Source: Candidatus Latescibacterota bacterium (lineage in GTDB: Bacteria > Latescibacterota > UBA2968 > GCA-2709665). From it: DNA of 64,000 nucleotides. Below the pieces are notes generated by a model, which saw nothing but the letters and a program-made list of their open reading frames with translations, was not told where the DNA came from and searched no databases. A program made the position numbers and the translations under genes. Where the stretch lies: contig OZ244744.1 in NCBI GenBank assembly GCA_965219455.1, forward strand, positions 2,208,001 to 2,272,000, in the 5' to 3' direction. This document shows, one piece after another, positions 843 through 30,258 of the stretch. Numbering within the stretch: position 1 is the first letter of the stretch; each line of letters begins with the position of its first letter.

Positions 843-2924
843 CTACTTCACATCCACCGTCGCCTTGCCAACCCCCACGTTTCCCAGCGCATCGGTCGCA
901 CGGACCACCACCGTATATTCTCCCGCCGTCAGCTCTTGAATTTCAAAACGCAAGGTTTCGGTTCTAGAGTCGAAAATCCGATCTACGGGAAAAATCACCT
1001 TCCAGTCTCCCGAATTCACCGCATAGGCCGCCTTCCAGAGTGGGCTCGCCGCGTCGTTCAGCGATCCCTCGACGAGTACGGGTCCGCCCGCAGCCAGCCT
1101 TATCTGCAGCCGCACGGAGGGCGGTGTATGGTCAAGATCGAACGGCTTGCTTTCCTTCTCGCCAACCAGCGCCAGTTCTTCCGGATTGTTCAACCGGTCA
1201 GACGCCACCACCCGGACCAGCATCGTACCTTCGGGCGCAGACTCGGTATTCCACTCGTAGAAATTGGCAAGCAAGTCCTCTTTCAGGAGTTTCCACCTTT
1301 TCTCGGAGCGACCCCGATAGTACAACGCATACACCAGTCGGTCGTTATTTGCGTCTGCGGCTTTCCAGGAGATCCGCCAGACGCCTCTTGCGTTACCGGG
1401 CGCCTGCCGGCCCTTTCCGGTGTCCTGCGGCGCGGCGCCGTTACCCTGGGACTCAAGGGGCGAGACGACGAGTGCAAGCACCTGCGGGCCCATGTTTTCC
1501 TGGAGGCCCACAAGACTCACCTCTCGAATCATCGGTGTCGCCGCGCCCGTTACCGAACTCAGCTCGGCCCGATACTGCAGGAAACGGGCGGGCGGACTGG
1601 ATATCTGACCACCCTGGGCGACTGAAGACCATTCACTCCAGGTATTGTCCGGTTTTTCGCTGTTTCCCGACCGCGTCCGGAATTGAATCGACGCATCCTG
1701 GGCGGGTTCTGAATCCCATCTGATCTTGCCCCATCTGGAAACCAGAAAGAAATCTCTCGCCCTGGATTCCAACCTGCCTTCGCGCGTGTATGCCTTACCC
1801 AACCGGTACACTTTCCCAGCACCCGTGGTCCCCACCCAGAACTCGCCTGTTGCGGACCTGCAGAATGCCCATGGTTGTACGTCTTTCAGACGGGTCAGCA
1901 GGGTGGCCTGACCGGCCAGGTCCACGCGATAGATACTCCCCCTGTCTCCCGTCAGCGCGGTAATTTCCCGGTCGTCTGCCTCCAATGCCAGGAGCAACGG
2001 TTCATCCACCTCCCAGAGACGAACCGTCGCACCCGAAGGCCGTATGGCGTACAACACGGAACCCTGTTGCGCGGAAGAGGATCCCTGACCCTTGGCGGCT
2101 GGCTGGGATCCGCCCTTTCCGCTCCCCTTGGAACGCCTGGACATCGCACCCGCAAACAGGATTCCGTCTGTTCCCATCGCCAACGCATGAATTTCATCCT
2201 CCGCCGCATCGTACAACACTTCCACTCGTCCCTTCGTATTGACCCGATAGACCAGACCGCTCTGATCCGTACCCGCATACACCTGGCCGTCGGCGTCCCG
2301 AATCAGCGAAACCACATTGTGGTCTTCGCTCTGATAAACCTCGTCGACTTTTCCGGCCGAGGAAATTCGCAGGATGCGTCCGTGTCTGCCGCCGGTTGCC
2401 GCGTACAGGCCTCCCTGTCCATCCACCACCAACGCCCAGACGTGTTCGTCTCCCGTTCGACAAAACATTTCAGGCTCTCTGCCCGGAGCAACCCTGTATA
2501 CAATCCCGTCCGGGGAGGAGCCCGCATAGAGTATCCCGTCCGGTCCGACGGCAAGACTGAATATGGCCACTTCGGGAGAATCAAAGAGAAGCACCGGCTC
2601 GCCAGAGCCATCAAACGCAAAGATCTTTCCGCCATTGCCCGTCGCAATATACAGACGGCCACCCTGCCCCTCCGCGAGTGCCCACACGAATTCTTCGCCC
2701 GTATCCGCCGCGACTTGAAGCTCCGGCGCGAGCGACACCGTGCCCTCTCTGGTTATCGAGACGCCGTCGGCTTCGCCCCTGGCAAACGCTTCCTGCGAGT
2801 GGTCGCGCCAAACGATCGGTTCGACGCCGTCTGCTGAACCCGGCAGGCAGTTCAGAACGAACCACAGGCCCATAAACAATACACGATTCTTCACATGTCC
2901 GTTTTCTCGATCCAACGGCCTCAT
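843..2924 (-). CDS. Secreted beta-propeller repeat protein with C-terminal FN3/Ig-like domains
   Basis: Signal-peptide-like N-terminus, repeated (V/I)WAL..D..G.LYA.T/G blades, and a C-terminal W.A.D.N.D.L.Y..Y and VRATDALGN segment. True start may be slightly downstream. Confidence 0.7.
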   Translation of the reverse strand: MRPLDRENGHVKNRVLFMGLWFVLNCLPGSADGVEPIVWRDHSQEAFARGEADGVSITREGTVSLAPELQVAADTGEEFVWALAEGQGGRLYIATGNGGKIFAFDGSGEPVLLFDSPEVAIFSLAVGPDGILYAGSSPDGIVYRVAPGREPEMFCRTGDEHVWALVVDGQGGLYAATGGRHGRILRISSAGKVDEVYQSEDHNVVSLIRDADGQVYAGTDQSGLVYRVNTKGRVEVLYDAAEDEIHALAMGTDGILFAGAMSRRSKGSGKGGSQPAAKGQGSSSAQQGSVLYAIRPSGATVRLWEVDEPLLLALEADDREITALTGDRGSIYRVDLAGQATLLTRLKDVQPWAFCRSATGEFWVGTTGAGKVYRLGKAYTREGRLESRARDFFLVSRWGKIRWDSEPAQDASIQFRTRSGNSEKPDNTWSEWSSVAQGGQISSPPARFLQYRAELSSVTGAATPMIREVSLVGLQENMGPQVLALVVSPLESQGNGAAPQDTGKGRQAPGNARGVWRISWKAADANNDRLVYALYYRGRSEKRWKLLKEDLLANFYEWNTESAPEGTMLVRVVASDRLNNPEELALVGEKESKPFDLDHTPPSVRLQIRLAAGGPVLVEGSLNDAASPLWKAAYAVNSGDWKVIFPVDRIFDSRTETLRFEIQELTAGEYTVVVRATDALGNVGVGKATVDVK

Positions 2925-3063
2925 CTCCTATCCTTCGCAATCGGTCTCCGCTGCAAGTTGCCCCCACCAAGTCCCGTGCGGTCCATCCGTTGCGGGCGCG
3001 CCCTTCGTCTTCGCGAAGACTTCGTGTCGGATGGACGCCTGGCGATGGCGTCCCCGGGACTGC

Positions 3064-4872
3064 CTACTTCCCTTTAGCGCCAGCGCTTCCACCCTCGGCA
3101 AATGTGACGCCGTTCGGTTTCCTGTTCACATTCAGTACAACAACCTGACTTCCCGAAAGCACATAGTCCGTGGGAATTCGTGCCCTTTGGACAACTGTCT
3201 GCCGAACCTGCTTTACCACATCCGACGAACGGGAAAACCGGAGCACCGAAAGTACCGACGGCGGCAGCCTTGACACCTCCCGTCCCTCAATCGTCACACC
3301 CTGGGCGCCGGACAGCAACTCAACAACCATTTCGTTGTTGCGGCCCGCCCGCCCCAGCAGGCGGATGAGATGATCCAGGTCTCTGGCGTTATATTCACCC
3401 GGCGCCCGCTTGGCCTCCTGTTTCTCGTGGGCGGATGCGTTGGAAACCTTGAGAATCAGCCGGCCGCCTGGCGTCTGATTCGGAATGACCAGCGCCTCCT
3501 GCACTTGCTGCAGTCCGCCCCAATAGGGTCTTAAAGAAACCGTGACGTGCACCGTATCGCCAGGCTGGAACGATGTCTTCTGCAGACCGATTGACTTGAT
3601 GTGAGCGGTGTGCGCCCGCTCTGCTTCAACATCCAGGTCGAAGGTCACCCGTTCGATCTGTACCGGCTCAAATGGATTCCGGATCAGCTTCGCAAGCGGC
3701 GCGGTGACCCCCAGCACGGCATGACCCAGCCCCAACGGGCCGGCATAGACGTTTTCGGCCTCAACGGATGGACGTCCTTTCAGGTCAATTCGCACACGGG
3801 ACTTCACCGTTACCTCTCCCGTCAGCTTCTCGGACGAAATCATCGCGCTGAATACCGCCATATTCAACAACGTGGGGCTGAGATCACGGTTTCGCAGGAC
3901 CTCCATCCGGAACTGGGCACGCTTGCCCGGGGAACGCAAATTGATCTGTGCCGGCATCATGTCCACGTCCAGGCCGATGGTACCCGCAATGCCGGGTGCG
4001 CGGTCCTGAACGATGGCACCCATGGTTTTCCCGGCCACACCCAGTTTGAAGGACGCAAATTGACTGGGCAACACTTCGTGAATATAGGCTGCCGTCATCG
4101 GCAACGCCGTGGCGCCGCCGAAAATCATGGAATGCCCGAAACCGACCACCCGGTCTCCGTCGCGATGGGTCAGCGTTCCGATTCCCGTAACGCTGAAATC
4201 GCCGCGTACCAGTTGCACGCCAAGGGCGGCGCCCGGTTCGAACGCACCGGCAGGCAGACCTGGATCCATTCCACCCCCGCCCTGAACCGGCGTCCAGCCC
4301 ATCTTCGAAAATTCCCGTCGGAATTCAGCCACCGCCTGCCGTGCGAAACCGGAGACCACGATCGGCAGGCTGATCGGCGTCAACTCAGCCGCATCCATCC
4401 CCGTCAGATCGACCAGGCGGCGCACGCTGGATTCCGTCGTCAATCGGGCCGCGGAGCTGACGCCCTGAGACGCGGTTGGTCGGTTGAACAGATCAACCAT
4501 TGCCGCTATCGGAGTAATCCCGGCGATGGGTTCTTTGGCGAAAGCGCCAACTCGATACGATACCGCTCCGACCAGCTTTCCATCGACATAAACCGGACTG
4601 CCGCTCATCCCCAGGATAACCCCGGTATTCGACAGGGGGCCGCCGGACAGCCGGGCGAGAATAAGGTCGCTACGTGGACCGATCGCGTTGCGTAGTACAC
4701 CCAGGATTTCGACCTGAAAGGTATCGATGCGCATGCCCTGGAAGACCGTCCGTCCGATACCCCGCATACCTCTCCGGAGTTCTTCCACGGGCATAGTCGC
4801 CACAGTCCCCCAGGAATTGCCGACCAATGCGCCCCATAGTAAAGCGGGGAGCGTTATTTTCAGCAGGCTCAT
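3064..4872 (-). CDS. SpoIVB peptidase S55 domain protein, secreted
   Basis: GVILGMSGSPVYVDGKLVGAVS catalytic-Ser motif, GxGxTV.G....F.VEILGV N-terminal signature and FGH motif. Start set at MSLLKITLP, downstream of the promoter at 4916-4944. Confidence 0.85.
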   Translation of the reverse strand: MSLLKITLPALLWGALVGNSWGTVATMPVEELRRGMRGIGRTVFQGMRIDTFQVEILGVLRNAIGPRSDLILARLSGGPLSNTGVILGMSGSPVYVDGKLVGAVSYRVGAFAKEPIAGITPIAAMVDLFNRPTASQGVSSAARLTTESSVRRLVDLTGMDAAELTPISLPIVVSGFARQAVAEFRREFSKMGWTPVQGGGGMDPGLPAGAFEPGAALGVQLVRGDFSVTGIGTLTHRDGDRVVGFGHSMIFGGATALPMTAAYIHEVLPSQFASFKLGVAGKTMGAIVQDRAPGIAGTIGLDVDMMPAQINLRSPGKRAQFRMEVLRNRDLSPTLLNMAVFSAMISSEKLTGEVTVKSRVRIDLKGRPSVEAENVYAGPLGLGHAVLGVTAPLAKLIRNPFEPVQIERVTFDLDVEAERAHTAHIKSIGLQKTSFQPGDTVHVTVSLRPYWGGLQQVQEALVIPNQTPGGRLILKVSNASAHEKQEAKRAPGEYNARDLDHLIRLLGRAGRNNEMVVELLSGAQGVTIEGREVSRLPPSVLSVLRFSRSSDVVKQVRQTVVQRARIPTDYVLSGSQVVVLNVNRKPNGVTFAEGGSAGAKGK

Positions 4873-17927: not shown

Positions 17928-19190
17928 GTGGACATCTTGAAAGATCTGGAGTTCCGGGGGTATGTTTTTCAGGTAACGGACGCCAGCGGACTCACGGCGC
18001 GGCTCGCCCGGGGGCCGATAACGCTCTATTCGGGGTTCGACCCCACGGCAGCCAGCTTGCACGTCGGCAACCTGATACCCATTCTGGGACTGCGGCGGTT
18101 CCAGTTGGCCGGGCATCATGCAATCGGCCTTATCGGAGGAGGTACCGGTTTGATTGGCGATCCGAGCGGAAGTAAGGAAGAACGCCGATTGAACCCGCCC
18201 GAGGTGATCGCGGCATATACCGAGAAGCTGACAGAGCAACTGGCTAAATTTCTGGATTTCGATACAAGAACCAATCCCGCCCAGGTGGTCAGCAATATGG
18301 GCTGGCTCTCCGAGCTCAAGGCAATTGACTTCCTGAGGGACGCGGGCAAGCATTTCCCCATGGGTTATATGCTGGCGAAAGAGTCCGTGGCTTCCCGTCT
18401 GGAATCCGGAATATCCTTCACCGAGTTCAGCTATATGGTCATTCAGGCATATGATTTCATGGAGTTGTTTCAAACGTGCGGATGCGAGTTGCAAATTGGC
18501 GGGAGCGATCAATGGGGCAATATTACAGCGGGAATCGAGTTGATCCGACGTCGTCTGGGCGGACAGGCACACGGTCTGACGTTTCCACTGCTGCAGAAAG
18601 CCGACGGTTCCAAGTTCGGCAAGACGGCCTCCGGTACTGTCTGGCTGGACGCGAGAAAGACAACGCCCTATCAGTTCTACCAGCACTGGATCAATACGGA
18701 TGACCGGGACGTCGTGAGCTTTCTGAAGCTGTTTACGTTTCTCTCGGAGGATGAGATCCGAAATCTGGAAATGGAGGTGTCACAACGCCCCGAGAAGCGC
18801 GAGGCACAGCGGGTTCTGGCCGACGAGGTAACCACATTCGTACATGACAGTACCGCAACAGACCGGGCGCGACGGATTTCCGAGGCATTGTTTTACGGGG
18901 ATCTGCGAGATCTGAGTGCACAAGAGATAGAGGAAGGGTTCAGCGACGTGCCATCTCATGCGCTCAATGGCGCGACTGAAGTGGGTTTGATTGGCTTGTT
19001 GGTCAATGTCCGCATTTCATCTTCCATGCGCCAGGCGCGCGAAGATATCAAGTCCGGCGCGATACATATCAATGGCCGGCGTTGCACGGATATGGGCCGG
19101 ATCCTTGAACCTTCCGAGAGACTCGCCGGAAAATACCTGGTGGTTCGCCGGGGCAAACGCCGCTACTTTCTGGTGCGCTGGAACAATTGA
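17928..19190 (+). CDS. tyrS: Tyrosine--tRNA ligase
   Basis: YSGFDPTAASLHVGN, QIGGSDQWGN and KFGKT motifs; C-terminal S4-like domain. Confidence 0.97.
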   Translation: MDILKDLEFRGYVFQVTDASGLTARLARGPITLYSGFDPTAASLHVGNLIPILGLRRFQLAGHHAIGLIGGGTGLIGDPSGSKEERRLNPPEVIAAYTEKLTEQLAKFLDFDTRTNPAQVVSNMGWLSELKAIDFLRDAGKHFPMGYMLAKESVASRLESGISFTEFSYMVIQAYDFMELFQTCGCELQIGGSDQWGNITAGIELIRRRLGGQAHGLTFPLLQKADGSKFGKTASGTVWLDARKTTPYQFYQHWINTDDRDVVSFLKLFTFLSEDEIRNLEMEVSQRPEKREAQRVLADEVTTFVHDSTATDRARRISEALFYGDLRDLSAQEIEEGFSDVPSHALNGATEVGLIGLLVNVRISSSMRQAREDIKSGAIHINGRRCTDMGRILEPSERLAGKYLVVRRGKRRYFLVRWNN

Positions 19191-19286: not shown

Positions 19287-20264
19287 ATGAAAGCACCATG
19301 GATTACCTATCGGCCGGAACTCAAGGTACTTGATTGTACGATTCGAGACGGCGGATTGATGAATGACCATCATTTTACCGATGATTTCGTGAAGGCAGCT
19401 TACGAAACCTGCGTTGAAGCAGGGGTCGATTATATGGAAATCGGGTACCGAAACTCCAAGGAGATGTTCCCAAAAGGACAATTCGGACCCTTTCGACACA
19501 GTGACGAAGAAGATATCCGCAAGATTGCGGGCGATCACGACCCTGAAACGACCGGCCTGAAGCTCGCCATTATGGCCGATGCGGGCAAGAGCGATTGGGC
19601 GGAAGACATCCTGCCGGCCAGCGAGAGCGTGGTCAGCATGGTGCGCGTAGCCTGCTATGTCGAGCAGATCCCTGAAACCGTCGAAATGCTTTGCGACGCC
19701 CATGAGAAAGGTTATGAAACCAGCTGTAACATTATGGCCATTTCGACCGTGCAGGAGGTCGAGATCGACCAGGCGCTGGAAGTACTGATAAAAACCCCGG
19801 TTGGAACAATATGTGTTGTAGATAGTTTTGGCGCATTGTACCGCGAGCAGGTGGATATGCTCATTCGGAAGTATATGGAAGCCGTCAGCGGAACGGGAAA
19901 AGAAGTGGGCATTCACGCGCACAACAACCAGCAACTGGCGTTCGCCAATACCCTGGAAGCGCTTATTCTGGGCGCCAACCGGGTTGATGCCACGGTGGAC
20001 GGACTTGGCCGCGGCGCAGGAAATTGCCCGCTGGAATTGCTGCTCGGTTTCTTGCGCAATCCCAAATTCAAGATTCGACCTGTCTACAAGCTATTGGAAG
20101 ACCATTTTGTCAAATTGCGCGGTGAATTGACGTGGGGGGCCCTCATTCCGTACAACATCACGGGTCAGCACAACCAGCATCCCCGCTCGGCAATGGCGCT
20201 CCTGGACGGGGACGACCGCGATCGGTATCTGACATTCTACGATCAGGTGATGAGGGATATCTAG
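19287..20264 (+). CDS. DRE-TIM metallolyase (HMGL-like / 4-hydroxy-2-oxovalerate aldolase-like)
   Basis: LDCTIRDGG, VVDSFG, HAHNN and GLGRGAGN motifs. Confidence 0.85.
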   Translation: MKAPWITYRPELKVLDCTIRDGGLMNDHHFTDDFVKAAYETCVEAGVDYMEIGYRNSKEMFPKGQFGPFRHSDEEDIRKIAGDHDPETTGLKLAIMADAGKSDWAEDILPASESVVSMVRVACYVEQIPETVEMLCDAHEKGYETSCNIMAISTVQEVEIDQALEVLIKTPVGTICVVDSFGALYREQVDMLIRKYMEAVSGTGKEVGIHAHNNQQLAFANTLEALILGANRVDATVDGLGRGAGNCPLELLLGFLRNPKFKIRPVYKLLEDHFVKLRGELTWGALIPYNITGQHNQHPRSAMALLDGDDRDRYLTFYDQVMRDI

Positions 20265-21638: not shown

Positions 21639-22451
21639 ATGACAAGAATCGGGAAACGGTTCGAGGCGTTGAAAGAAGCGCGCAGGACCGGATTTGTGGC
21701 CTACATCACCGCGGGAGATCCGGACCTGGCAATCACCCGCAAGCTGGTGCCGGAACTGGAACGGCGCGGGGTGGACATTCTCGAGTTGGGCGTGCCGTTC
21801 TCCGATCCACTGGCGGATGGACCGGAGATCCAGCGGGCATCGCAGCGCGCCCTGCGACATCGGGTGTCAATCGGTGACGTGCTGGATCTGGTGGCAGACC
21901 TGCGGCGGGAGACGGAGATACCGATTGTGCTGTTTACGTATTTCAATCCGATGCATCGTTTTGGTCTGAAACGACTTGTCGACCGGGCGGCCGAAGCGGG
22001 GGTGGACGGCATTCTGGCGCTGGATCTTCCGCCCGAGGAGGCGGCGGAGTACAAGTGTCTGATGTCGCAACAGGGACTGGATACGATTTTTTTGATTGCG
22101 CCAACGAGCCGTGAGGATCGTATTCAACGGATTGCGGCGCATTCCAGCGGGTTTGTGTATTACGTGTCACGCACGGGCGTAACGGGGGAACGGAAAAGCC
22201 TGGAGGAGACACTTGGCGCCAAGGTGGCGACCATCCGTCGCTACACGTCGCAACCGGTTGCGGTGGGATTCGGTATTTCGACGCCCGAACATACCAGGGA
22301 GGTTGCAGTTTATGCGGATGCAGTCGTCGTTGGCAGCGCGATCGTGCGGCGAATTGCGGAGCGGCAGGGCGACCCGGATCTCGTTTCACACATCGGAGTA
22401 TTTGTGGAAGAACTCGTGCAACCGTTGAAGGGAGCACCCGATGGATCTTGA
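21639..22451 (+). CDS. trpA: Tryptophan synthase alpha chain
   Basis: ELGVPFSDPLADGPEIQ, GVTG and VGFGI motifs. Confidence 0.97.
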   Translation: MTRIGKRFEALKEARRTGFVAYITAGDPDLAITRKLVPELERRGVDILELGVPFSDPLADGPEIQRASQRALRHRVSIGDVLDLVADLRRETEIPIVLFTYFNPMHRFGLKRLVDRAAEAGVDGILALDLPPEEAAEYKCLMSQQGLDTIFLIAPTSREDRIQRIAAHSSGFVYYVSRTGVTGERKSLEETLGAKVATIRRYTSQPVAVGFGISTPEHTREVAVYADAVVVGSAIVRRIAERQGDPDLVSHIGVFVEELVQPLKGAPDGS

Positions 22452-22773
22452 AGACTGGCGAAAGGAAATCGACGTCCTGAATCAACAACTGCTGGAGCTT
22501 CTCAATCGACGAGCCGAATGTGCACTTGAGATTGGCAGGATTAAACAGGCAATCGAGCAACCGATTTATGCGCCGGAACGGGAGACGTCGATCCTGAACC
22601 GAATCCGTAAACTGAACACGGGGCCCCTGACCGACGAAGCGGTGCATCGGATATTTCAGCAGATAATCGATGAGTCCAGGCGCCTGGAACAGGAGCATGG
22701 CGACCGGGAAACGGGGGCACAAAACCCCTCTGAATCCGTTCGTGAAACCGGCCGAACGACTAAACCGGATTGA
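22441..22773 (+). CDS. Monofunctional AroQ chorismate mutase
   Basis: LEDWRKEID...LLNRR...IGRIK...IYAPERE...IIDESRRLEQ pattern. Confidence 0.92.
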   Translation: MDLEDWRKEIDVLNQQLLELLNRRAECALEIGRIKQAIEQPIYAPERETSILNRIRKLNTGPLTDEAVHRIFQQIIDESRRLEQEHGDRETGAQNPSESVRETGRTTKPD

Positions 22774-22802
22774 CGGTCGCCAACCCCCGGAGCTGAAGGC
22801 AA

Positions 22803-23831
22803 ATGGCGTTCAGAAAGATCCTGAAGATACCCACCCCGGAAGCCGTACTGGAGAAGATGTCGCTTCCGAAGAAGCTGAAGGCTGTAAAGGATGAACGCGA
22901 CGCGGAAATCAGGGATATTTTCGCGCGGAGGAGCGATAAGTTTCTGCTGGTGATCGGCCCCTGTTCGGCGCACAACGAAGATGCCGTATGTGAATACGTG
23001 TCCCGGCTGGCGAAACTGCAGGAGGCCGTCCGGGAAAAACTGGTTCTGGTGCCGCGCATTTATACCAACAAACCCCGAACAACCGGCGAGGGGTACAAGG
23101 GGATGGGGCATCAGCCGGACCCGCGGAAGGCACCGGATATTTCCGAGGGGATCTATGCGGTTCGTCAGATGCATATCCGGGCGGTCCGGGAGTCCCATCT
23201 GACGGCCGCCGACGAAATGCTGTACCCGGGCAATCTGCCGTATGTCGAGGATCTGCTGAGTTATATAGCCGTGGGCGCACGGTCGGTGGAGAATCAACAG
23301 CACCGCTTGACCTGTAGCGGCGTCGGCGTGCCGGTCGGAATGAAGAACCCGACGGGAGGAGATCTTTCGGTCATGCTGAACGCGATTCACGCCTCACAGA
23401 TTCCACACGTCTTCATTTATAACGGCTGGGAGGTGAGTACCGATGGCAATCCCCTGGCACACGCCGTGCTTCGGGGCGCCGTGGATGTGACCGGGCGCAG
23501 TATTCCGAACTATCACTTTGAAGACCTCATACACGTTGCGGAACTCTATCGCCAGCGGCCGCTTGCCAATGCCGCAATCGTTGTGGATACGAATCACAAT
23601 AATTCCGGCAAACAGTTCAGCGAACAACCCAGGATCGGGTTGGAGGTGATACGCAGCCGGCAGAGTTCGGGATTCTTGAACGATATGATCCGTGGGTTGA
23701 TGGTGGAAAGTTTTCTGGTTGAGGGCACACAGAACGTTAATGACGGCGTGTACGGCAAATCCATTACCGATCCGTGCCTGGGGTGGAAGGATTCCGAGGT
23801 GTTTGTGAAGGAACTGGCGGAAAAAATATGA
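22803..23831 (+). CDS. aroF: DAHP synthase, class I-alpha
   Basis: IGPCS, KPRTTGEGYKG, GARS, GMKN and YGKSITDPC motifs. Confidence 0.93.
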   Translation: MAFRKILKIPTPEAVLEKMSLPKKLKAVKDERDAEIRDIFARRSDKFLLVIGPCSAHNEDAVCEYVSRLAKLQEAVREKLVLVPRIYTNKPRTTGEGYKGMGHQPDPRKAPDISEGIYAVRQMHIRAVRESHLTAADEMLYPGNLPYVEDLLSYIAVGARSVENQQHRLTCSGVGVPVGMKNPTGGDLSVMLNAIHASQIPHVFIYNGWEVSTDGNPLAHAVLRGAVDVTGRSIPNYHFEDLIHVAELYRQRPLANAAIVVDTNHNNSGKQFSEQPRIGLEVIRSRQSSGFLNDMIRGLMVESFLVEGTQNVNDGVYGKSITDPCLGWKDSEVFVKELAEKI

Positions 23832-23909
23832 GAGCGGCCGGGCTCCGGATTCAGGAGTGAATCGGAACGTTTTCCTGACGCTCTTGCCTGTTCTTCCGAG
23901 GATGAAGGT

Positions 23910-25022
23910 ATGGCGAATGATCCTCCGTTTGCGCGTGAGACGATTGCTATTGTGGGTGTTGGGTTGATCGGCGGATCTCTTGGCGTGGCACTCAAGGGTC
24001 TGGGCATCGGGCGAAGCATCGTTGGCGTCAGCAGGCAGGAGACACTGGATGCAGCCGGCGAATTGAATGTAATTGACGCGGGCTATCGCTATGAAGAGCT
24101 GGCAGCGGGAATTGCCGAAGCGGCGCTGGTTTTCCTGTGTACTCCCATTGTACGTATTCTGGACCTGCTGCCGCGGGTGCTGGGGGCGGCGCGGAAGGGT
24201 GCGGTCGTGACCGATGTGGGCAGCACCAAGCACGCGATTGTTTCCGCGGCGACGGCGCATCAACGGGATGGCGTGTGCTTTGTGGGAGGGCATCCGATGG
24301 CCGGGTCCGAACATCGCGGGGTAAGCGCGGCGGATCCTTTCCTGTTTCAGAACGCCATTTACGTATTGACGCCGTCGCCGGACACGCCCGATTTCGTGGT
24401 CGAAAAGCTCGCGCGCCTCGTGAGGGCGCTCGGGGCGAGACCCATGAGGATGACGCCTCAGGCACACGACAGGGCGGCGGCGGCGGTGAGCCATTTGCCG
24501 CAGATGATGGCCACAAGCCTGGTGTCCATGATCGGACGGATGACCGAGGCCGAAGGGTTGCCGATACGGATGGCGGCGGGTGGGTTTCGGGATCTGACAC
24601 GCATTGCATCCAGCCCGTATGAAATGTGGCGGGATATCTGCCATACAAACGGGGCCTCGATCCGTGAGATGATCGATCTCTATATTGAGTCGCTGGCAGC
24701 GATTCGCGGGGAAGTGGACCATGACGGTCTGGAGCAGGCATTTGTCTATGCGAATCGGGTACGGGGACAGATCCCGAAGGACTCCAAGGGGTTTTTGCAT
24801 CCCCTATACGAAATCCTCCTGGTGGCGGAAGACAGACCGGGCGTGATTGCCGACGTCGCTCAGACCCTGGCCGGAGAGAACATCAATATTAACGACATCG
24901 AGGTGTTGAATGTACGGGAGGGGGAAGGGGGCACCATCCGGATGGGGTTCGATTCACGTCCATGCGCGGAAGAGGCCGTAGGTGTGTTGGGGAAGGCGGG
25001 ATACAGCGTCAGGCTGAGATAG
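23910..25022 (+). CDS. tyrA: Prephenate/arogenate dehydrogenase with C-terminal ACT domain
   Basis: GVGLIGGS, DVGSTK, GGHPMAG, SHLP, GFRDLTRIA and DRPGVI (ACT) motifs. Confidence 0.94.
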   Translation: MANDPPFARETIAIVGVGLIGGSLGVALKGLGIGRSIVGVSRQETLDAAGELNVIDAGYRYEELAAGIAEAALVFLCTPIVRILDLLPRVLGAARKGAVVTDVGSTKHAIVSAATAHQRDGVCFVGGHPMAGSEHRGVSAADPFLFQNAIYVLTPSPDTPDFVVEKLARLVRALGARPMRMTPQAHDRAAAAVSHLPQMMATSLVSMIGRMTEAEGLPIRMAAGGFRDLTRIASSPYEMWRDICHTNGASIREMIDLYIESLAAIRGEVDHDGLEQAFVYANRVRGQIPKDSKGFLHPLYEILLVAEDRPGVIADVAQTLAGENININDIEVLNVREGEGGTIRMGFDSRPCAEEAVGVLGKAGYSVRLR

Positions 25023-25101
25023 ACGGAAGGATCCCGAACGGGAAACGGTTGAACGAGAGAGATTGCTGCCCGTCCTTTAGTGACTCCATTTTGAAGAAGG
25101 C

Positions 25102-26415
25102 GTGGTTTTGGAATTCGCGGGTTCGGTGATTTCCCGGGGCACGATCAGGCCCTCGCCAGGGCTTGTGGGGACATGCGACCTCCCGGGCGATGCCAACATG
25201 TCGATAATGGCCCTGGTGCTATCGTCCACGGCCGATGGAATCTCCCGGATTCACAGGTGTTCGCGACGACGCGACGTCGGGCGAGCCGTAGAATTGCTGT
25301 CGAAACTCGGGATTTCGGTCGGGTGGGACGGTGAGACCGCGACGGTGACCGGCGGCCGCTTCAGGGCGCCGGACGACGTGCTGCACGTGGATGGGTCCCC
25401 GGTTCTGTTTTCCTGTCTGGCGGGATTGCTGTCGAATGCGCCCTTTGTGACCAGACTCTCCGGAGTTCGGGCGGATGCCGACGTCGACAGGGTTTTCGGG
25501 GCGCTCCGCGCATTGGGCGCACAACTGGACATTCCGGCTGAGGATCGGACATCGGCAGGTGTGGGAGGGGGTAAGTTAACGCCCGGTTCCTACCGCGTCG
25601 GACTTCCGGATATGTTGGTGAAGTGTGTAATGCTTATGGCCGGGTTGGGTGTGGATGGTCCGGTTGAACTGTTGCAGGACACCCGTGGGGATGACGACCT
25701 GGAAGTGTTGCTGCAAGCAGCAGGATGCGGGCTGAAGAAGAGGCGCATGAAGGGCGCCGGCGGTCATCGATTGTTGATGGAAGGACCCGTACGGCTCCAT
25801 GGCGTTACCCATGAGTTGCCGGGTAGTTCGGACGCGGGGCTGTTTCTTGCTCTCGCTGCGGCAATGTTGAAACGGTCTGATGTGACGGTAACCCATTTCG
25901 GAATGGATTCGAGAAGCCGCAGGATCGTAGATATATTGCGGCGAATGAACGTATCTATGGATGTGGAGCAATACTGGACGAATTCCGGTTTTCCCGTACG
26001 ACGACTTCGGATCAGGGGGTCCGAATTGCGTGGTATAAAAATCTCGGGTGCGAATGCGAGACGCTTCAGGGACGTGCTCCCGCTCCTGGCAGTCGCGGGC
26101 GCGGTATCCCGGGGTGAAACGATTTTACGGGATGCCGAGGCGTTGAGGGACGGCCCGGTGGACTGTATTTCGGTAATGGTGGAAAACCTCAGGAAGATGC
26201 AGATTCAAGTTGGGGAGATGCCGGATGGGCTGGTTGTGAAGGGCGGGCAACTGCAGGGCGCCGAACTGGATGCTGCCGGCGACGCCCGTGTGTCAATGGC
26301 ACTCACGCTGGCAACGCTGGCGAGCGAAGGGGAAACCCTTGTAATGAACCCTGGGCCCGTGGATCAGATGCATCATGGGATCATGGAAAGATTGGCTACG
26401 GTTTTGGAGACGTAA
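25102..26415 (+). CDS. EPSP-synthase-fold protein lacking catalytic residues (AroA-like pseudoenzyme candidate)
   Basis: Collinear with class II AroA over 437 aa, but motifs read PGDANMSIMA, DGSPVLFS, PDMLVKC, RDGPVDCI and GDARVSM. Confidence 0.8.
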   Translation: MVLEFAGSVISRGTIRPSPGLVGTCDLPGDANMSIMALVLSSTADGISRIHRCSRRRDVGRAVELLSKLGISVGWDGETATVTGGRFRAPDDVLHVDGSPVLFSCLAGLLSNAPFVTRLSGVRADADVDRVFGALRALGAQLDIPAEDRTSAGVGGGKLTPGSYRVGLPDMLVKCVMLMAGLGVDGPVELLQDTRGDDDLEVLLQAAGCGLKKRRMKGAGGHRLLMEGPVRLHGVTHELPGSSDAGLFLALAAAMLKRSDVTVTHFGMDSRSRRIVDILRRMNVSMDVEQYWTNSGFPVRRLRIRGSELRGIKISGANARRFRDVLPLLAVAGAVSRGETILRDAEALRDGPVDCISVMVENLRKMQIQVGEMPDGLVVKGGQLQGAELDAAGDARVSMALTLATLASEGETLVMNPGPVDQMHHGIMERLATVLET

Positions 26416-26507
26416 GTCGTGTACGTAATTCGGTTGCCCGACGTGTATTGTGGCGGCATGGGCCGCTCAAAACAACGTGGGTCAATCATCGGTACGAGGA
26501 GAGTCTT

Positions 26508-26648
26508 ATGAGACTGGTTGGCAGGTTGTTCTTTCTGGCGTTACTCGTGTTCCTGGGAGGCGTGGTTTTCATTCGGTACACCTACAACTGTTCCTGGAAA
26601 GAGAGTTTTGCAATTGCCGATCAGTTTGTGTCTGACCTGACCGGTTGA
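26508..26648 (+). CDS. Small single-TM protein (46 aa)
   Basis: GAGGAG SD before ATG; MRLVGRLFFLALLVFLGGVVFIRYTYNCSWKESFAIADQFVSDLTG. Confidence 0.6.
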   Translation: MRLVGRLFFLALLVFLGGVVFIRYTYNCSWKESFAIADQFVSDLTG

Positions 26649-26738
26649 GCAACGCGATGCTGGTCGACGTGCGGGGGAACTTCAACCGGCCAGACGCGAA
26701 AACCGGGTTTAGGAACTGATAGGTCAGGGGAGTCTGTT

Positions 26739-27605
26739 TTGGGTATTGTGTCAACCACGCAGTTGCTGGGGGTGATAGGCGATCCGATTGCCCATTCGTT
26801 GTCGCCGGACATGCACAATGCGGCCATAAGCGTTCTTGAAGCAGACTACTGTTACGTTGCCTTTCACGTATTGCCGAATGGGGTTGAATCGGCGCTTCAG
26901 GGGATGCGCGCCTTGCAGATCCGGGGTTTGAACGTAACCCTTCCGCACAAGACTGCAGTGATGGCACACCTGGACCGGATTTCCGAAGAAGCACTGGCCG
27001 TGGGCGCGGTGAATACGATTTCTTTCAATGACGGCGAACTGGTCGGGCACAATACAGACGTGTACGGGTTGGCCACCGCGCTGGAGCGGACGGCCGGCCT
27101 CGCCGTGTTGCCGGAGCATTGCGTGATTCTCGGCGCGGGCGGCGTGGCGCGGGCGGCTGTTTATGCGCTGGCTACGCAAAATGAGGTGCGGCGGGTGAGC
27201 ATTCTGAATCGAACTGTAGGCCGGGCGGAAGCGCTTGCGCGTAATATGGAACGGATCACAGGCAAGACAATAGACGCGGGCGATCTGACGACAGACACCC
27301 AAATGAGGCGGTTCGCGGATGCCGGCCTCGTCGTGAATGGTACTTCGCTGGGGATGCACCCGAACGTAGAGCGGACGCCGCTTGCGGATACAGACACGAT
27401 ACACTCACAACTGGTGCTCTACGATACGGTTTTCAACCCGCTGGATACGCTGCTGATGCGGCAGTTTCGATCCGCGGGCGCGCTGGCTTTTGGAGGACTG
27501 GATATGCTTGTACACCAGGGTGCGCGTTCGTTTGCCATCTGGACGGGAGTCGAGCCGCCCGTCGACGTCATGAAGCAGGCGGTAATCGACCGGTTTCGGG
27601 CGTAG
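26739..27605 (+). CDS. aroE: Shikimate dehydrogenase
   Basis: HSLSP, NVTLPHK, GAVNT, NTD, GAGG and NRT motifs. Confidence 0.95.
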   Translation: MGIVSTTQLLGVIGDPIAHSLSPDMHNAAISVLEADYCYVAFHVLPNGVESALQGMRALQIRGLNVTLPHKTAVMAHLDRISEEALAVGAVNTISFNDGELVGHNTDVYGLATALERTAGLAVLPEHCVILGAGGVARAAVYALATQNEVRRVSILNRTVGRAEALARNMERITGKTIDAGDLTTDTQMRRFADAGLVVNGTSLGMHPNVERTPLADTDTIHSQLVLYDTVFNPLDTLLMRQFRSAGALAFGGLDMLVHQGARSFAIWTGVEPPVDVMKQAVIDRFRA

Positions 27606-27607
27606 CT

Positions 27608-28327
27608 GTGGTGAGGTCCGACCTACAGGAACGCCGGGCAAAACGGACTTTTGTGCGTCAGATGTTCGACGGCATAGCCGGTACGTACGATCTGTTGAAC
27701 CACCTGCTGAGCGCCGGCGTGGACATTGTCTGGCGGCGATGGACAGTAGACGCACTGGAATTGCAAGCCGGAGAGTGGATCCTGGACCTTGCAACGGGAA
27801 CGGGCGATTTGGGCCTCGAAGCGGCTGCGCGTGATTCGGGCGTGCGGGTTGTGGGCGCGGACCTGTCCCTACCGATGCTTCGGCTAGCAAACAAAAAACG
27901 GGATAGGGGATCCGGCCGACTGCTTCTCCTATGTGCAGACGCGGAGCGGCTGCCGTTTCCCGACGTGCAGTTTCATGCCGTAACGATTGGTTTCGGAGTA
28001 CGGAATTTTTCGGACTTGAACAATGGCCTTCAGGAGATACATCGGGTTTTACGCGCCGGAGGCCGGTTGGCAATTCTGGAGTTTTCCAGGCCCAGGGCGT
28101 TTCTATTACGCAGGATCTACTTTTTTTATTTCAAATTTATCCTGCCCGGCATCGGCCGGCTTGTTTCCCGGAATCCTCTGGCGTATCGGTATCTTTATGA
28201 GTCTGTAATGGGTTTTCCTGAGGGGGAAGCATTCCGAAGGCGTCTGACGCAGGCCGGTTTTGTCGAGGCGGTGGAACGCCGGTTGACCTTTGGGATTGCG
28301 ACCATCTATTTGGCTTCAAAACCGTAA
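27608..28327 (+). CDS. ubiE: Demethylmenaquinone / ubiquinone methyltransferase (UbiE/MenG)
   Basis: MFDGIA..YD..N..LS.G, LDLATGTGD, FGVRN and YLYESV motifs. Confidence 0.93.
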   Translation: MVRSDLQERRAKRTFVRQMFDGIAGTYDLLNHLLSAGVDIVWRRWTVDALELQAGEWILDLATGTGDLGLEAAARDSGVRVVGADLSLPMLRLANKKRDRGSGRLLLLCADAERLPFPDVQFHAVTIGFGVRNFSDLNNGLQEIHRVLRAGGRLAILEFSRPRAFLLRRIYFFYFKFILPGIGRLVSRNPLAYRYLYESVMGFPEGEAFRRRLTQAGFVEAVERRLTFGIATIYLASKP

Positions 28328-28505
28328 AAGCGCTTTGCTTATTGGTCAGCGTGTTGGGCTTGAGAAAGTAACGAGATGGCATTTTCAAAGCGCGAGGATT
28401 ACAAGTTTTACGCATTTCAAATGTTGAAATTCGCACGCATTCAGATGGCGTTCTCAAATCAATCAGAGCATATATAAGGCAGCGTTCGCTCAACGCTTGG
28501 TTCAA

Positions 28506-28545
28506 CTCCCCCTTTCCTTGTAGGAGAGGGGGCTGAGGGGAGAGG
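28506..28545. repeat. REP-like palindromic unit upstream of argS
   Basis: Hairpin CCCCTTTCCT-TGT-AGGAGAGGGG followed by GCTGAGGGGAGAGG; resembles a widespread intergenic repeat type. Confidence 0.45.
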
Positions 28546-28554
28546 TCCTCCTTT

Positions 28555-30258
28555 ATGGTCAATCCTTTTATTGAAGAAATTGTATCGCAGGTGTCAAAAA
28601 CGACTGACATGCGCCCCGATGAGGTGAGGGCGCTGATCGAGGTCCCTCCAAAACCCACTATGGGGGACTACACCCTTCCGTGTTTCAGGCTTGCAAAAAC
28701 GCTGCGAAAGGCGCCGAATCAGATCGCCGCGGATCTTGGAGAGCGGGTACGGACGGGCGGACGCATCGCCCGGGTCAGGGCTGAGGGCCCATATCTCAAC
28801 ATTTTCGTTAGCCGGACCGAATTTGTACGGGAGACGCTTTCGGAAATTCTCGCAAGGGGCGAGCAATTCGGACGGAGCGAGGCAGGCGCGGGGAAAACAG
28901 TCGTGGTCGATTTTTCGTCACCGAATATCTCCAAGCCATTCACTATAGCCCACATCCGTTCGACAGCGATTGGAAATTCGCTCTGCAGGATATACAGGGC
29001 CCTCGGTTGGAACGTGCTCGGTATCAATCACCTTGGTGACTGGGGCGCCCCGCACGGGATGAATATCGCGGCGTACAAACGCTGGGGAGACGAGAACGCG
29101 GTTCGCAGGAATCCGGCCTATGAGCTATTTAACCTGTACGTAAAATTCAATGCCGAGATGGAACGGGATCCGTCTCTCAGAAACGACGTGAAGGACTGGA
29201 CCAGGAAGCTGGAGGCGGGCGATGCCGAGGCGCTCAGACTCTGGAATTGGTTCAGGGACGAGACCATAAAGGACTTCAAGCGAATTTATGAATTGATGGA
29301 CGTGGAATTTAGTGAATATACAGGAGAGAGTTTTTTTCACAATAAGGTGGGGCCGGTTATCGAAGCACTTAAGGCGAATGGCCTGGCGGTGGAGAGTGAG
29401 GGCGCCCTCGTGGTGATGCTGGACGATGAAGATATGCCCCCGGCCATCATCCAGACCGGACACGATACCAGCGTCTATCTCACACGCGATCTGGCCGCGG
29501 CGATTTACCGCAAGCAGACCTACGACTTCGATAAGTTGATCTATACGACCGACGCCGGGCAGTCCCTGCATTTTCGGCAGCTATTCAAGGTGCTGGAACG
29601 GATGGGCTATGAGTGGGCGAAAGACTGTGTGCACGTCCCGTTCGGTATCATTTCCTTCAAAGAGGGAAGGATGTCTACGCGCAGGGGCAACGTGATTTTC
29701 CTGGAGGACGTGCTGAACCGTGCGATAGAGCTGACACGGGATATTATAGAGGACAAGAATCCGGAGCTTCCCAATAAAGACGGGATCGCCCGGGACGTGG
29801 GCATCGGCGCGGTGGTCTACGCGGATCTCGATTCCCGCCGGACGCGGGACGTGGTGTTCGACTGGGATGAGATCCTTAACTTTAACGGCGAGACCGGCCC
29901 CTACGTCCAATATACCCATGCGCGTTATCGCAGTGTCCTACGTAAATACGGAGGCGCCGTGCCGCCGCCCGATGCAGACCTTTCTCTGTTAACCGAACCC
30001 GAGACGGTGGCGGTGGTCAAGTGCCTGGAACGGTATCCGGCGCGAATCCGGAACGCGGCCGAGGCCTGCGAGCCGTCTCTGATTGCCGGGTTCCTGATCG
30101 AACTCTGTACAGAGGCGAACCGGTTTTACAACGCCCACCGGGTCATTTCAGATGACCTGCCCCTGACCCGGGCGCGCATCGCCCTGGTTTATTCCATCAC
30201 TGTCGTGCTGTCGGCCGGCCTTCATCTGCTCGGGTTGCGGGCGCCCGAGGAGATGTGA
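28555..30258 (+). CDS. argS: Arginine--tRNA ligase
   Basis: DFSSPNISKP, NHLGDWG, YLTRDLA, RMSTRRG and GETGPYVQYTHAR motifs; ends in EEM. Confidence 0.96.
   Translation: MVNPFIEEIVSQVSKTTDMRPDEVRALIEVPPKPTMGDYTLPCFRLAKTLRKAPNQIAADLGERVRTGGRIARVRAEGPYLNIFVSRTEFVRETLSEILARGEQFGRSEAGAGKTVVVDFSSPNISKPFTIAHIRSTAIGNSLCRIYRALGWNVLGINHLGDWGAPHGMNIAAYKRWGDENAVRRNPAYELFNLYVKFNAEMERDPSLRNDVKDWTRKLEAGDAEALRLWNWFRDETIKDFKRIYELMDVEFSEYTGESFFHNKVGPVIEALKANGLAVESEGALVVMLDDEDMPPAIIQTGHDTSVYLTRDLAAAIYRKQTYDFDKLIYTTDAGQSLHFRQLFKVLERMGYEWAKDCVHVPFGIISFKEGRMSTRRGNVIFLEDVLNRAIELTRDIIEDKNPELPNKDGIARDVGIGAVVYADLDSRRTRDVVFDWDEILNFNGETGPYVQYTHARYRSVLRKYGGAVPPPDADLSLLTEPETVAVVKCLERYPARIRNAAEACEPSLIAGFLIELCTEANRFYNAHRVISDDLPLTRARIALVYSITVVLSAGLHLLGLRAPEEM

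What the first reader, a model, noticed from the sequence alone, without database searches (positions are those of the whole stretch)
25102..26415. Full-length AroA homolog with a dismantled active site
Seen versus class II EPSP synthase consensus (E. coli numbering, aligned by eye): PGDKSISHRA to PGDANMSIMA (K22, S23, R27 lost); GNSGTTMR to DGSPVLFS; the RP motif (R124) absent; SAQVKS to DMLVKC (Q171); RVKESDRI to RDGPVDCI (K340, E341, R344); DHR to DAR (H385). Only D313 (RDVLP) and R386 remain. The frame is still open for 437 codons and occupies the usual position after tyrA. MurA motifs are not present either. Inference: a maintained pseudoenzyme (scaffold, sensor or partner of a real AroA encoded elsewhere) or a neofunctionalised enolpyruvyl-transferase fold.
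Basis: partly seen in the sequence, partly recalled or inferred. Interest (0 to 1): 0.75.

Follow-up and report, generated by a model that had tools for sequence, protein, structure and literature searches.

The report
Dead EPSP synthase kept beside tyrA
This gene is a catalytically dead copy of the shikimate-pathway enzyme EPSP synthase that has stayed in its old operon slot under selection since a second, intact copy elsewhere in the genome took over, and in some relatives it has shrunk to a single protein domain.

Summary
Window 25102-26415 (+) is an open 437-codon EPSP-synthase homologue (PF00275, 157 bits). It scores far below the aroA equivalog cut-off (143 vs 287 bits) and lacks nearly every substrate-binding or catalytic motif.

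- **Other copies:** the genome holds a canonical AroA 0.6 Mb away and a MurA.
- **Origin:** the dead copy descends from the phylum's own class II aroA, in the conserved slot tyrA-X-aroE. All copies I examined from families f1-f4 of its class are degenerate. A relative from another class has an intact enzyme in that slot and no second AroA.
- **Selection:** it is not a decaying pseudogene. None of the 30 best matches has an internal stop. dN/dS is 0.32 (CI 0.26-0.38), against 0.14 and 0.19 for tyrA and aroE.
- **Reduction:** two lineages independently cut out the whole shikimate-3-phosphate-binding domain in frame. This left a ~215-aa single-domain protein, present in 21 of 21 genomes of one genus, with dN/dS 0.13, as low as its enzyme neighbours.
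- **Loss:** one congener deleted the gene outright, so it is dispensable there.

The function is non-catalytic and sits in the retained domain. No partner was identified.

The parts
25102..26415 (+). Pseudo-AroA ORF: a catalytically dead class II EPSP-synthase homologue. It is 437 aa from GTG 25102, or more likely 435 aa from TTG 25108.
   Evidence: AF2 model: pLDDT 92.6, pTM 0.91. Best Foldseek hits are class II EPSP synthases, TM 0.75-0.85.
25180..25812 (+). Codons 27-237: domain 2, the half that binds shikimate-3-phosphate in real enzymes. This part is cut out in frame in genus g11 and family f3. It is the less constrained half in genus g1.
   Evidence: (dN/dS 0.33 here against 0.21 for the rest).
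25813..26412 (+). Codons 238-437. Together with codons 1-26 (25102-25179) this forms domain 1, the part that all reduced versions keep.
23910..25022 (+). tyrA: prephenate/arogenate dehydrogenase with a C-terminal ACT-like tail. It is the upstream neighbour in every locus examined.
22803..23831 (+). DAHP synthase. It lies upstream of tyrA in most of the loci compared.
   Evidence: The name rests on conserved synteny with aromatic-pathway genes and my reading of the translation; this ORF had no family scan.
26508..26648 (+). 46-aa ORF with one predicted membrane helix and a conserved C-terminal tail. It follows the AroA or pseudo-AroA gene in every tyrA-X-aroE locus examined.
   Evidence: No Pfam or NCBIfam family matches it.
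26739..27605 (+). aroE (shikimate dehydrogenase), the downstream neighbour in every locus examined.

Best explanation
The ORF is the positional and phylogenetic descendant of this phylum's own class II EPSP synthase gene, in the operon slot tyrA-aroA-aroE. A second, intact EPSP synthase at an unrelated locus now does the enzyme's work. The operon copy lost its substrate-binding and catalytic residues once, near the base of the class.

Since then it has been kept as a folded, translated protein with no EPSP synthase activity. The selected function lies in domain 1, formed by the N-terminal strand plus the C-terminal half. Domain 2 can be cut out without loss of constraint.

Shown: it is dead as an enzyme, it has been displaced, it is under purifying selection, and one domain is enough. 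Inferred only: what domain 1 does. My preferred guess is binding to another product of the same operon. TyrA comes first, because of its fixed adjacency and a published Pseudomonas parallel. The conserved 46-aa membrane protein encoded just downstream is the second candidate.
For: **Loss of the active site**
- Motif losses appear in HMMER and MAFFT alignments.
- The aroA equivalog scores 143 bits against a cut-off of 287.

**Replacement**
- The genome has three PF00275 genes: a canonical AroA (410 bits, all motifs intact), a MurA, and this one.
- The canonical copy lies among unrelated genes: an M48 peptidase, a PHP-domain protein and an LD-carboxypeptidase.
- Relatives of that canonical type (E <= 1e-40) occur in 142 of 168 genomes of the phylum, G000 included. 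Not counting G000, that is 20 of 21 in f1, 31 of 31 in f2 and 3 of 3 in f3.

**Origin**
- tyrA-X-aroE is syntenic in all 38 loci fetched around matches to the pseudo-AroA and compared.
- G010, from another class, has an intact class II enzyme at X and no match to the second type.
- In the tree, the f1-f3 dead copies (support 100), the f4 operon copies (100) and the degenerate P0123 form one clade (99). That clade is sister to the intact G010 and P0041.

**Selection**
- None of the 30 best matches has an internal stop.
- Five independent species pairs in genus g1 give dN/dS 0.32 (CI 0.26-0.38), against tyrA 0.14 and aroE 0.19.

**One domain is enough**
- All 21 g11 genomes carry a ~215-aa gene that joins the N-terminal strand directly to residue ~240.
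- It models as one EPSP-synthase domain: pLDDT 85.7, Foldseek TM 0.78 over 198 columns.
- Its dN/dS is 0.13 (CI 0.10-0.17), against 0.10 and 0.14 for its neighbours.
- The domain-1 tree places g11 inside the full-length f2 clade and f3 as a separate branch, so the excision happened at least twice.

**Published parallel**
- Song et al. 2005 (PMC1173090, passages of sections 23 and 30 read) report a Pseudomonas syringae TyrA-EPSP synthase fusion. It lost about 200 residues of its synthase domain when a stand-alone synthase was acquired. The authors suggest the remnant could become a regulatory domain.

**Expression (weak)**
- Three contigs from libraries labelled, or guessed to be, RNA overlap the ORF.
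Against: - One of the 15 g1 genomes (G050, 95% complete) has cleanly deleted the gene. It keeps about 30 nt of the 3' end and the small ORF. G040 keeps only a 160-174-aa C-terminal remnant. The function is therefore dispensable in some backgrounds.
- The full-length form evolves about twice as fast as its neighbours.
- No fused TyrA form turned up among the 120 longer homologues listed.
- No conserved charge signature marks domain 1.
- The positions that face the former cleft are mostly variable within the family, so no ligand site stands out.
- Only 4 of the 76 f4 genomes were inspected at residue level.
- The RNA-library contigs cannot exclude contaminating DNA.
Confidence: 0.72

Rival explanations
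1. It is a ligand sensor. Domain 1 binds a small anionic metabolite, such as a pathway intermediate or an aromatic amino acid, through newly fixed arginines, and passes that signal to the pathway.
For: Several arginines are invariant in the family but not in intact class II enzymes. They lie in the DWKTRR motif, the SELR motif and the strand around residue 300. The fold's helix N-termini form anion sites in the real enzyme (recalled).
Against: Cleft-facing positions other than these vary within the family. The f4 copies share only part of the arginine pattern. Net charge is inconsistent across members.
Confidence: 0.13
2. It is a relic with no protein function. The reading frame is kept only because its translation or position serves the neighbours, for example by translational coupling to the 46-aa ORF just downstream or by operon architecture.
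For: The small ORF starts 3-20 nt after the stop of the upstream gene in g11, f2, f4 and G010. The gene has been shortened repeatedly and once deleted.
Against: Coupling would keep a frame open but would not hold amino-acid change to dN/dS 0.13-0.32. It would also not preserve a complete foldable domain in two independent excisions. In G000 the small ORF lies 93 nt downstream with its own GAGGAGAG site, and it survives in G050 without the gene.
Confidence: 0.08
3. It is a neofunctionalised enzyme: the enolpyruvyl-transferase fold now catalyses a different reaction at a rebuilt site.
For: Full-length members share their own conserved motifs in domain 2, RCSxRP and GDDDLEVL. Both domains are under purifying selection in g1.
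Against: Two lineages dispense with domain 2 altogether, and constraint tightens rather than relaxes. The positions matching the catalytic Lys, Glu, Arg and His are not replaced by any conserved alternative.
Confidence: 0.05
4. It is still an EPSP synthase with an unusual active site.
For: Whole-length homology, and a confidently predicted EPSP-synthase fold.
Against: Nearly every residue group known to bind S3P or PEP is lost. It scores below the equivalog cut-off. An intact AroA is present elsewhere.
Confidence: 0.02

Closest known systems
Class II EPSP synthase (AroA; TIGR01356, PF00275), especially the copies next to or fused with TyrA (NF011381)
   Same: Full-length homology of about 30% identity to solved class II enzymes. 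Same two-domain fold in the model. Same operon slot after tyrA. The best NCBIfam hit is the synthase half of the TyrA-AroA fusion model.
   Different: It lacks the Lys/Ser/Arg N-terminal motif, the GNSGTxxR loop, the RP motif, SAQ, KE..R and the His of DHR. It is below the equivalog cut-off. It is not the genome's working AroA.
Truncated EPSP-synthase domain of the Pseudomonas syringae TyrA-AroF fusion (Song, Bonner, Wolinsky and Jensen 2005, PMC1173090; passages read)
   Same: An EPSP synthase beside TyrA loses about 200 residues when a second, stand-alone synthase is acquired, and the remnant is retained. The authors raise a regulatory role.
   Different: That remnant is fused to TyrA and confined to one species group. 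The paper is inconsistent about which end was lost: N-terminal in section 23 and Table 5, C-terminal in section 30. Here the gene is separate, most lineages first passed through a full-length dead stage, the family spans a whole class, and selection was measured. I could not re-examine the Pseudomonas case: the 80 loci returned were all full-length fusions.
Pseudoenzymes in general (reviews PMC5106787 and PMC10211241; seen only in a search listing)
   Same: A homologue of an enzyme lacks the catalytic residues, is kept under purifying selection, and sits beside an active paralogue.
   Different: Three full-text searches found no description of a pseudoenzyme with the EPSP-synthase fold. The step-wise reduction to a single domain is unusual.
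MurA (UDP-GlcNAc enolpyruvyl transferase)
   Same: Same superfamily fold.
   Different: MurA models score 41-53 bits against cut-offs of 297-552. The genome has its own MurA.

Membership tests
EPSP synthase (AroA, EC 2.5.1.19) | Homology to PF00275 over the whole length, and the two-domain fold | tested here: met
   157 bits over residues 20-429. AF2 pLDDT 92.6; Foldseek TM 0.75-0.85 to class II enzymes.
EPSP synthase (AroA, EC 2.5.1.19) | Score at or above the curated equivalog cut-off (TIGR01356) | tested here: not met
   143.1 bits against a cut-off of 287.25.
EPSP synthase (AroA, EC 2.5.1.19) | N-terminal PGDKS..HR motif (Lys, Ser and Arg that bind S3P and PEP) | tested here: not met
   PGDANMSIMA in the window. 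These positions vary across the family.
EPSP synthase (AroA, EC 2.5.1.19) | GNSGTxxR loop and the RP motif | tested here: not met
   DGSPVLFS, and DV in place of RP.
EPSP synthase (AroA, EC 2.5.1.19) | SAQ / SSQ motif of the S3P site | tested here: not met
   DML in the window; PDxAV in the family consensus.
EPSP synthase (AroA, EC 2.5.1.19) | LRxKExDR motif (Lys, catalytic Glu, Arg) | tested here: not met
   LRDGPVDCI. Gly replaces the Lys in every dead copy examined that keeps this segment, f4 and P0123 included; G133 has it deleted.
EPSP synthase (AroA, EC 2.5.1.19) | DHR motif | tested here: not met
   DAR. The His position varies in the family and the Arg is mostly kept.
EPSP synthase (AroA, EC 2.5.1.19) | Asp of the IDExP motif | tested here: met
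   RDVLP aligns to IDEIP. The position is Asp, Asn or Glu in the family.
EPSP synthase (AroA, EC 2.5.1.19) | Enzyme activity, or complementation of an aroA mutant | not testable with these tools
   Needs a bench assay.
MurA | Score at or above the curated cut-offs of the MurA models | tested here: not met
   41-53 bits against cut-offs of 297-552.
Pseudoenzyme (dead homologue kept by selection) | Catalytic residues are lost while the fold is retained | tested here: met
Pseudoenzyme (dead homologue kept by selection) | Purifying selection and intact frames across species | tested here: met
   None of the 30 best matches has a stop. dN/dS is 0.32 (CI 0.26-0.38) in g1 and 0.13 (CI 0.10-0.17) in g11.
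Pseudoenzyme (dead homologue kept by selection) | A demonstrated non-catalytic function (partner or ligand) | not testable with these tools
   No partner or ligand could be established here; bench work is needed.
Decaying pseudogene | Stop codons, frameshifts, or dN/dS near 1 | tested here: not met
   There are exceptions: G040 keeps only a remnant and G050 deleted the gene.

The most novel reading that the evidence does not exclude
One lobe of the EPSP-synthase fold has become an autonomous, non-catalytic module of the aromatic amino-acid operon, acting as a regulatory or scaffolding subunit. The likeliest partners are TyrA or the conserved 46-aa membrane protein encoded next to it. Evolution reached this single-domain form at least twice in this class, and perhaps a third time in Pseudomonas syringae. 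That would make the working enzyme's lobe a pre-existing protein-interaction surface, and would hint that intact bacterial AroA also has a structural role in a shikimate/tyrosine enzyme assembly.
Probability: 0.3. Interest if true: 0.75.

Novelty: new variant of a known kind. Interest (0 to 1): 0.62.

Why it matters
- **Annotation:** sources label members of this family as 3-phosphoshikimate 1-carboxyvinyltransferase or as hypothetical. Pathway reconstructions and glyphosate-sensitivity surveys that classify EPSP synthases by marker residues would miscount them.
- **Evolution:** it is an unusually complete series. An intact enzyme, a full-length dead copy, a single domain, a remnant and a deletion all occupy one syntenic slot, with selection measured at two of the stages. 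This shows how a displaced enzyme can be recycled rather than lost.
- **Pathway biology:** if domain 1 binds another pathway protein, that would point to physical organisation of the bacterial shikimate/tyrosine pathway, which is well described so far only for the eukaryotic AROM complex (recalled).

Tried and rejected
- **Complex prediction:** TyrA (alignment A4) with the pseudo-AroA (alignment A2) gave no answer, score 0.00 against a mark of 0.32. It counts neither for nor against binding.
- **Codon model:** I replaced it with Nei-Gojobori pairwise estimates and a codon bootstrap over independent pairs.
- **Rfam:** a scan of 22000-29000 found nothing at E <= 1.
- **Promoter and terminator scan:** 22400-28600 gave no more sites than shuffles.
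- **Pseudomonas syringae check:** the attempt to re-examine the truncated fusion returned 80 loci, all full-length over residues 1-735, so that case rests on the paper alone.
- **Fused forms:** none were seen among the 120 longer homologues listed. All carry PF00275 only and are 392-465 aa. This is weak evidence because the listing is capped.
- **Charge:** net charge and pI of domain 1 show no consistent basic signature, so I dropped the idea of nucleic-acid binding.
- **ESM Atlas:** it lists clusters of 211-225-aa EPSP-synthase-domain proteins in other phyla. These may be fragments and are a lead only.
- **RNA libraries:** parts of the stretch without contig cover say nothing either way.
- **Literature:** searches for a described EPSP-synthase pseudoenzyme found none. 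Paper supplements were not consulted.

Full report
**1. What is at the coordinates**

Window 25102-26415 (+) is an open frame of 437 codons starting at GTG. The third codon is TTG, preceded by GAAGAAGG at a better spacing. The 97%-identical public gene call P0002 has 435 aa, so the start is probably 25108.

Pfam EPSP_synthase matches residues 20-429 at 157 bits. The curated aroA equivalog gives 143 bits against a cut-off of 287, and MurA models give 41-53 bits against cut-offs of 297-552. The closest solved proteins are class II EPSP synthases at about 30% identity (3rmt E 1.5e-41, 4gfp).

The N-terminal Lys/Ser/Arg motif, the GNSGTxxR loop, the RP motif, SAQ, the Lys-Glu..Arg motif and the His of DHR are all gone. 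The Asp of IDExP and the Arg of DHR remain.

**2. The genome has a working enzyme elsewhere**

A search of the window's own single-contig, 5.84-Mb genome with PF00275 finds three genes.
- One, at C1:1630960-1632306, scores 410 bits and carries every motif: PGSKSYTNR, GNSGTTCR, RERP, SSQ, KETDR, DDHR and KTFP.
- One is MurA.
- The third is the ORF under study.

The intact copy sits among unrelated genes: an M48 peptidase, a PHP-domain protein and an LD-carboxypeptidase.

The dead copy sits inside an aromatic supra-operon. The gene order is trpG, trpD, trpC, trpF, tyrS, an aldolase-like gene, trpB, trpA, DAHP synthase, tyrA, the dead copy, a 46-aa ORF, aroE, a methyltransferase, argS, aroK, aroB.

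**3. A family of its own, confined to one class**

A word-indexed search gives a block of homologues from E 3e-271 down to 7e-74 (97% to 36% identity). Scores then drop to ordinary AroA at E 1e-48 and below.

The exhaustive HMMER search of 1.84 billion cluster representatives finds only four representatives at E < 1e-60 before canonical enzymes begin.

Across this block the catalytic positions are not only changed but variable. The family has its own conserved motifs instead: RCSxRP, GDDDLEVL, DWKTRR, LRxGxxDC, VGEMPDGLVV and NPGPV. Sources name members either as 3-phosphoshikimate 1-carboxyvinyltransferase or as hypothetical, from Latescibacterota, Gemmatimonadota or unnamed bacteria.

**4. 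Origin by displacement**

In the 168 genomes held for the phylum, the slot tyrA-X-aroE is conserved in all 38 loci that I fetched around matches to the dead copy and compared. What occupies X differs by lineage.

| Lineage | What occupies X |
|---|---|
| g1 | Full-length dead copy in 14 of 15 genomes, 72-100% identical |
| Other f1 genera (7 genomes) | Full-length in 5 (48-52% identical); pieces on two contigs in G044; a short remnant in G040 |
| f2, genera g6-g10 | Full-length in 10 of 10 genomes, 38-45% identical |
| f4 | Full-length in the 4 of 76 genomes inspected (G113, G133, G101, G153), 28-30% identical and also degenerate |
| G010 (another class) | Class II enzyme with every motif intact; no match to the second AroA type |

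The f4 copies read PGERVPAERA and EGLEESAL. They have no RP motif, LRQGxFD with no catalytic Lys, Glu or Arg, and DDAEL.

Relatives of the second AroA type (E <= 1e-40) occur in 142 of 168 genomes. Not counting G000, that is 20 of 21 in f1, 31 of 31 in f2 and 3 of 3 in f3. The one f1 genome without a match, G051, is 95% complete in 320 contigs. Three f4 genomes with only weak matches to that type carry a further AroA type that has all the motifs.

A maximum-likelihood tree groups the f1-f3 dead copies (support 100), the f4 operon copies (100) and P0123 in one clade (99). That clade is sister to the intact G010 and P0041. P0123 is itself degenerate. The simplest history is one loss of activity in the operon's own gene, after or while another AroA became available.

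**5. It is kept by selection**

None of the 30 best genome matches has an internal stop. Pairwise Nei-Gojobori medians in g1 (14 genomes, 91 pairs) are 0.27 for the dead copy, against 0.13 for tyrA and 0.13 for aroE.

Kin are not independent, so I pooled five non-overlapping sister pairs and bootstrapped codons.

| Group | Dead copy | tyrA | aroE |
|---|---|---|---|
| g1, 5 pairs | 0.32 (CI 0.26-0.38) | 0.14 (0.11-0.18) | 0.19 (0.14-0.25) |
| g11, 8 pairs (single-domain form) | 0.13 (CI 0.10-0.17) | 0.10 (0.09-0.13) | 0.14 (0.11-0.18) |

Within the g1 protein, domain 1 (residues 1-26 and 238-437) gives 0.21 and domain 2 (27-237) gives 0.33. The gene is therefore constrained, about twice as loosely as its enzyme neighbours, and domain 2 is the looser half.

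**6. Reduction to one domain, twice**

In all 21 genomes of genus g11 the slot holds a gene of about 215 aa. Its product begins with the family's N-terminal strand and then runs straight into the segment that starts near residue 240 of the full-length protein. The join lies at the PG(D) motif that occurs at both places. Gene callers in public assemblies predict the same 214-224-aa proteins.

This removes exactly the lobe that holds most of the S3P site in real enzymes. It leaves the other lobe complete, because that lobe is built from the N-terminal strand plus the C-terminal half; the domain boundaries of the solved enzymes are recalled.

The AF2 model has pLDDT 85.7 and pTM 0.83. It superposes on one lobe of class II enzymes: 3rmt, E 1.6e-16, TM 0.78 normalised to the query, 198 columns. 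The full-length window protein models as the normal two-lobed fold: pLDDT 92.6, pTM 0.91, TM 0.75-0.85.

The single-domain gene is as constrained as true enzymes (section 5, second table row). Family f3 (G037, G038) has a similar single-domain gene.

In a tree of domain 1, the g11 genes nest deep inside full-length f2 sequences, next to P0036, with supports of 99-100. The f3 pair branches separately, outside f1 plus f2 (100/99). The excision therefore happened at least twice.

Further decay also occurs. G040 keeps only a 160-174-aa C-terminal piece, while its congener G041 is full-length. G050, a congener of the window's organism, has a clean deletion that leaves about 30 nt of the 3' end.

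**7. What it most likely does**

Shown:
- It is not an EPSP synthase.
- It is a selected protein.
- One lobe is enough.
- It is dispensable in at least one relative.

Not shown: its activity. Catalysis of any kind at the inter-lobe cleft is hard to reconcile with the single-domain forms.

I favour a protein-binding role within the pathway. The gene has stayed immediately downstream of tyrA throughout: 55-80 nt in most loci, and more in a few such as G038.

There is also a published parallel. Song et al. 2005 (PMC1173090; I read passages of sections 23 and 30 and Table 5) describe a Pseudomonas syringae TyrA-EPSP synthase fusion. Its synthase domain lost about 200 residues when a stand-alone synthase arrived by transfer, and they suggest the remnant might serve as a regulatory domain. 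The paper gives the lost end as N-terminal in one place and C-terminal in another. I could not re-examine the case.

A second candidate partner is the 46-aa membrane-helix protein encoded right after the gene in every such locus, including those with the intact enzyme.

Against a strict dependence: the deletion in G050, and the absence of fused forms among the homologues listed. A ligand-sensor role through family-specific arginines remains open.

**8. Expression**

Contigs from two metatranscriptome runs, and from two runs whose RNA status is only a guess, cover scattered parts of DAHP synthase, tyrA, aroE and the methyltransferase gene. Three of these contigs overlap the ORF: 25033-25209, 26111-26323 and 26399-26567. 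This fits transcription at a level similar to the neighbours, but contigs cannot exclude DNA carry-over.

**9. Novelty**

Four full-text searches found no description of a pseudoenzyme with the EPSP-synthase fold. The closest precedent is the single Pseudomonas observation above. The EPSP-synthase classification preprint (10.1101/2020.05.27.118265, passages read) has a large 'unclassified' bin and does not discuss inactive homologues. Supplements were not consulted.

I rate this a new variant of a known kind: a pseudoenzyme left after gene displacement. It is notable for its age, for the measured selection, and for the convergent single-domain end state.

Noticed in passing
window 26508-26648 (+): A 46-aa ORF with its own GAGGAGAG ribosome-binding site, one hydrophobic helix and a conserved C-terminal tail. 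tblastn finds it right after the AroA or pseudo-AroA gene in every tyrA-X-aroE locus examined. That covers f1, f2, f3, f4, G010 with the intact enzyme, and G050 where the pseudo-AroA is deleted. It often starts 3-20 nt after the upstream stop. No Pfam or NCBIfam family matches it.
   Followed up: partly
G000:C1:466423-467649 (L002 1453-2745, minus strand), outside the window: The genome's MurA has Asp where most MurA enzymes have the Cys that fosfomycin alkylates (PGGDKIG). This is the naturally fosfomycin-insensitive variant known from some other bacteria (recalled).
   Followed up: no
window 19287-20264 (+): An aldolase-like (DRE-TIM/HMGL-type) gene sits inside the trp operon between tyrS and trpB. 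It is below all NCBIfam cut-offs; the best hit is 4-hydroxy-2-oxovalerate aldolase at 122 bits against 229. Where present it is the most conserved gene of the region: 93-97% identity in g1 and 89-90% in g11, against 56-93% for its neighbours.
   Followed up: no
window 17928-19190 (+): tyrS (tyrosyl-tRNA synthetase) is embedded between trpF and trpB, and argS lies between the methyltransferase gene and aroK. Two aminoacyl-tRNA synthetase genes are thus interleaved with aromatic-pathway genes, and the arrangement is conserved across families.
   Followed up: no
L076-L078 (G113, G101, G153; family f4): The working AroA of these f4 genomes is a third type, 33-37% identical to the window genome's canonical copy. 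It has Ala in the GNAGA loop where sensitive enzymes have Gly, a feature associated with glyphosate-insensitive enzymes (recalled).
   Followed up: no
L068 (G038), between tyrA (73-1176) and the single-domain gene (2491-3096): About 1.3 kb of extra DNA separates tyrA from the single-domain gene in this f3 genome, unlike the 55-80 nt seen elsewhere. I did not examine its content.
   Followed up: no
L075 (G008, family f8): tyrA is followed directly by two tandem aroE-like genes, with no AroA-like gene or small ORF between them.
   Followed up: no
ESM Atlas clusters: There are clusters of 211-225-aa proteins carrying only the EPSP-synthase domain (56-154 members; Actinomycetota and Pseudomonadota among the few with taxonomic records). 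They could be fragments, or further single-domain derivatives in other phyla.
   Followed up: no
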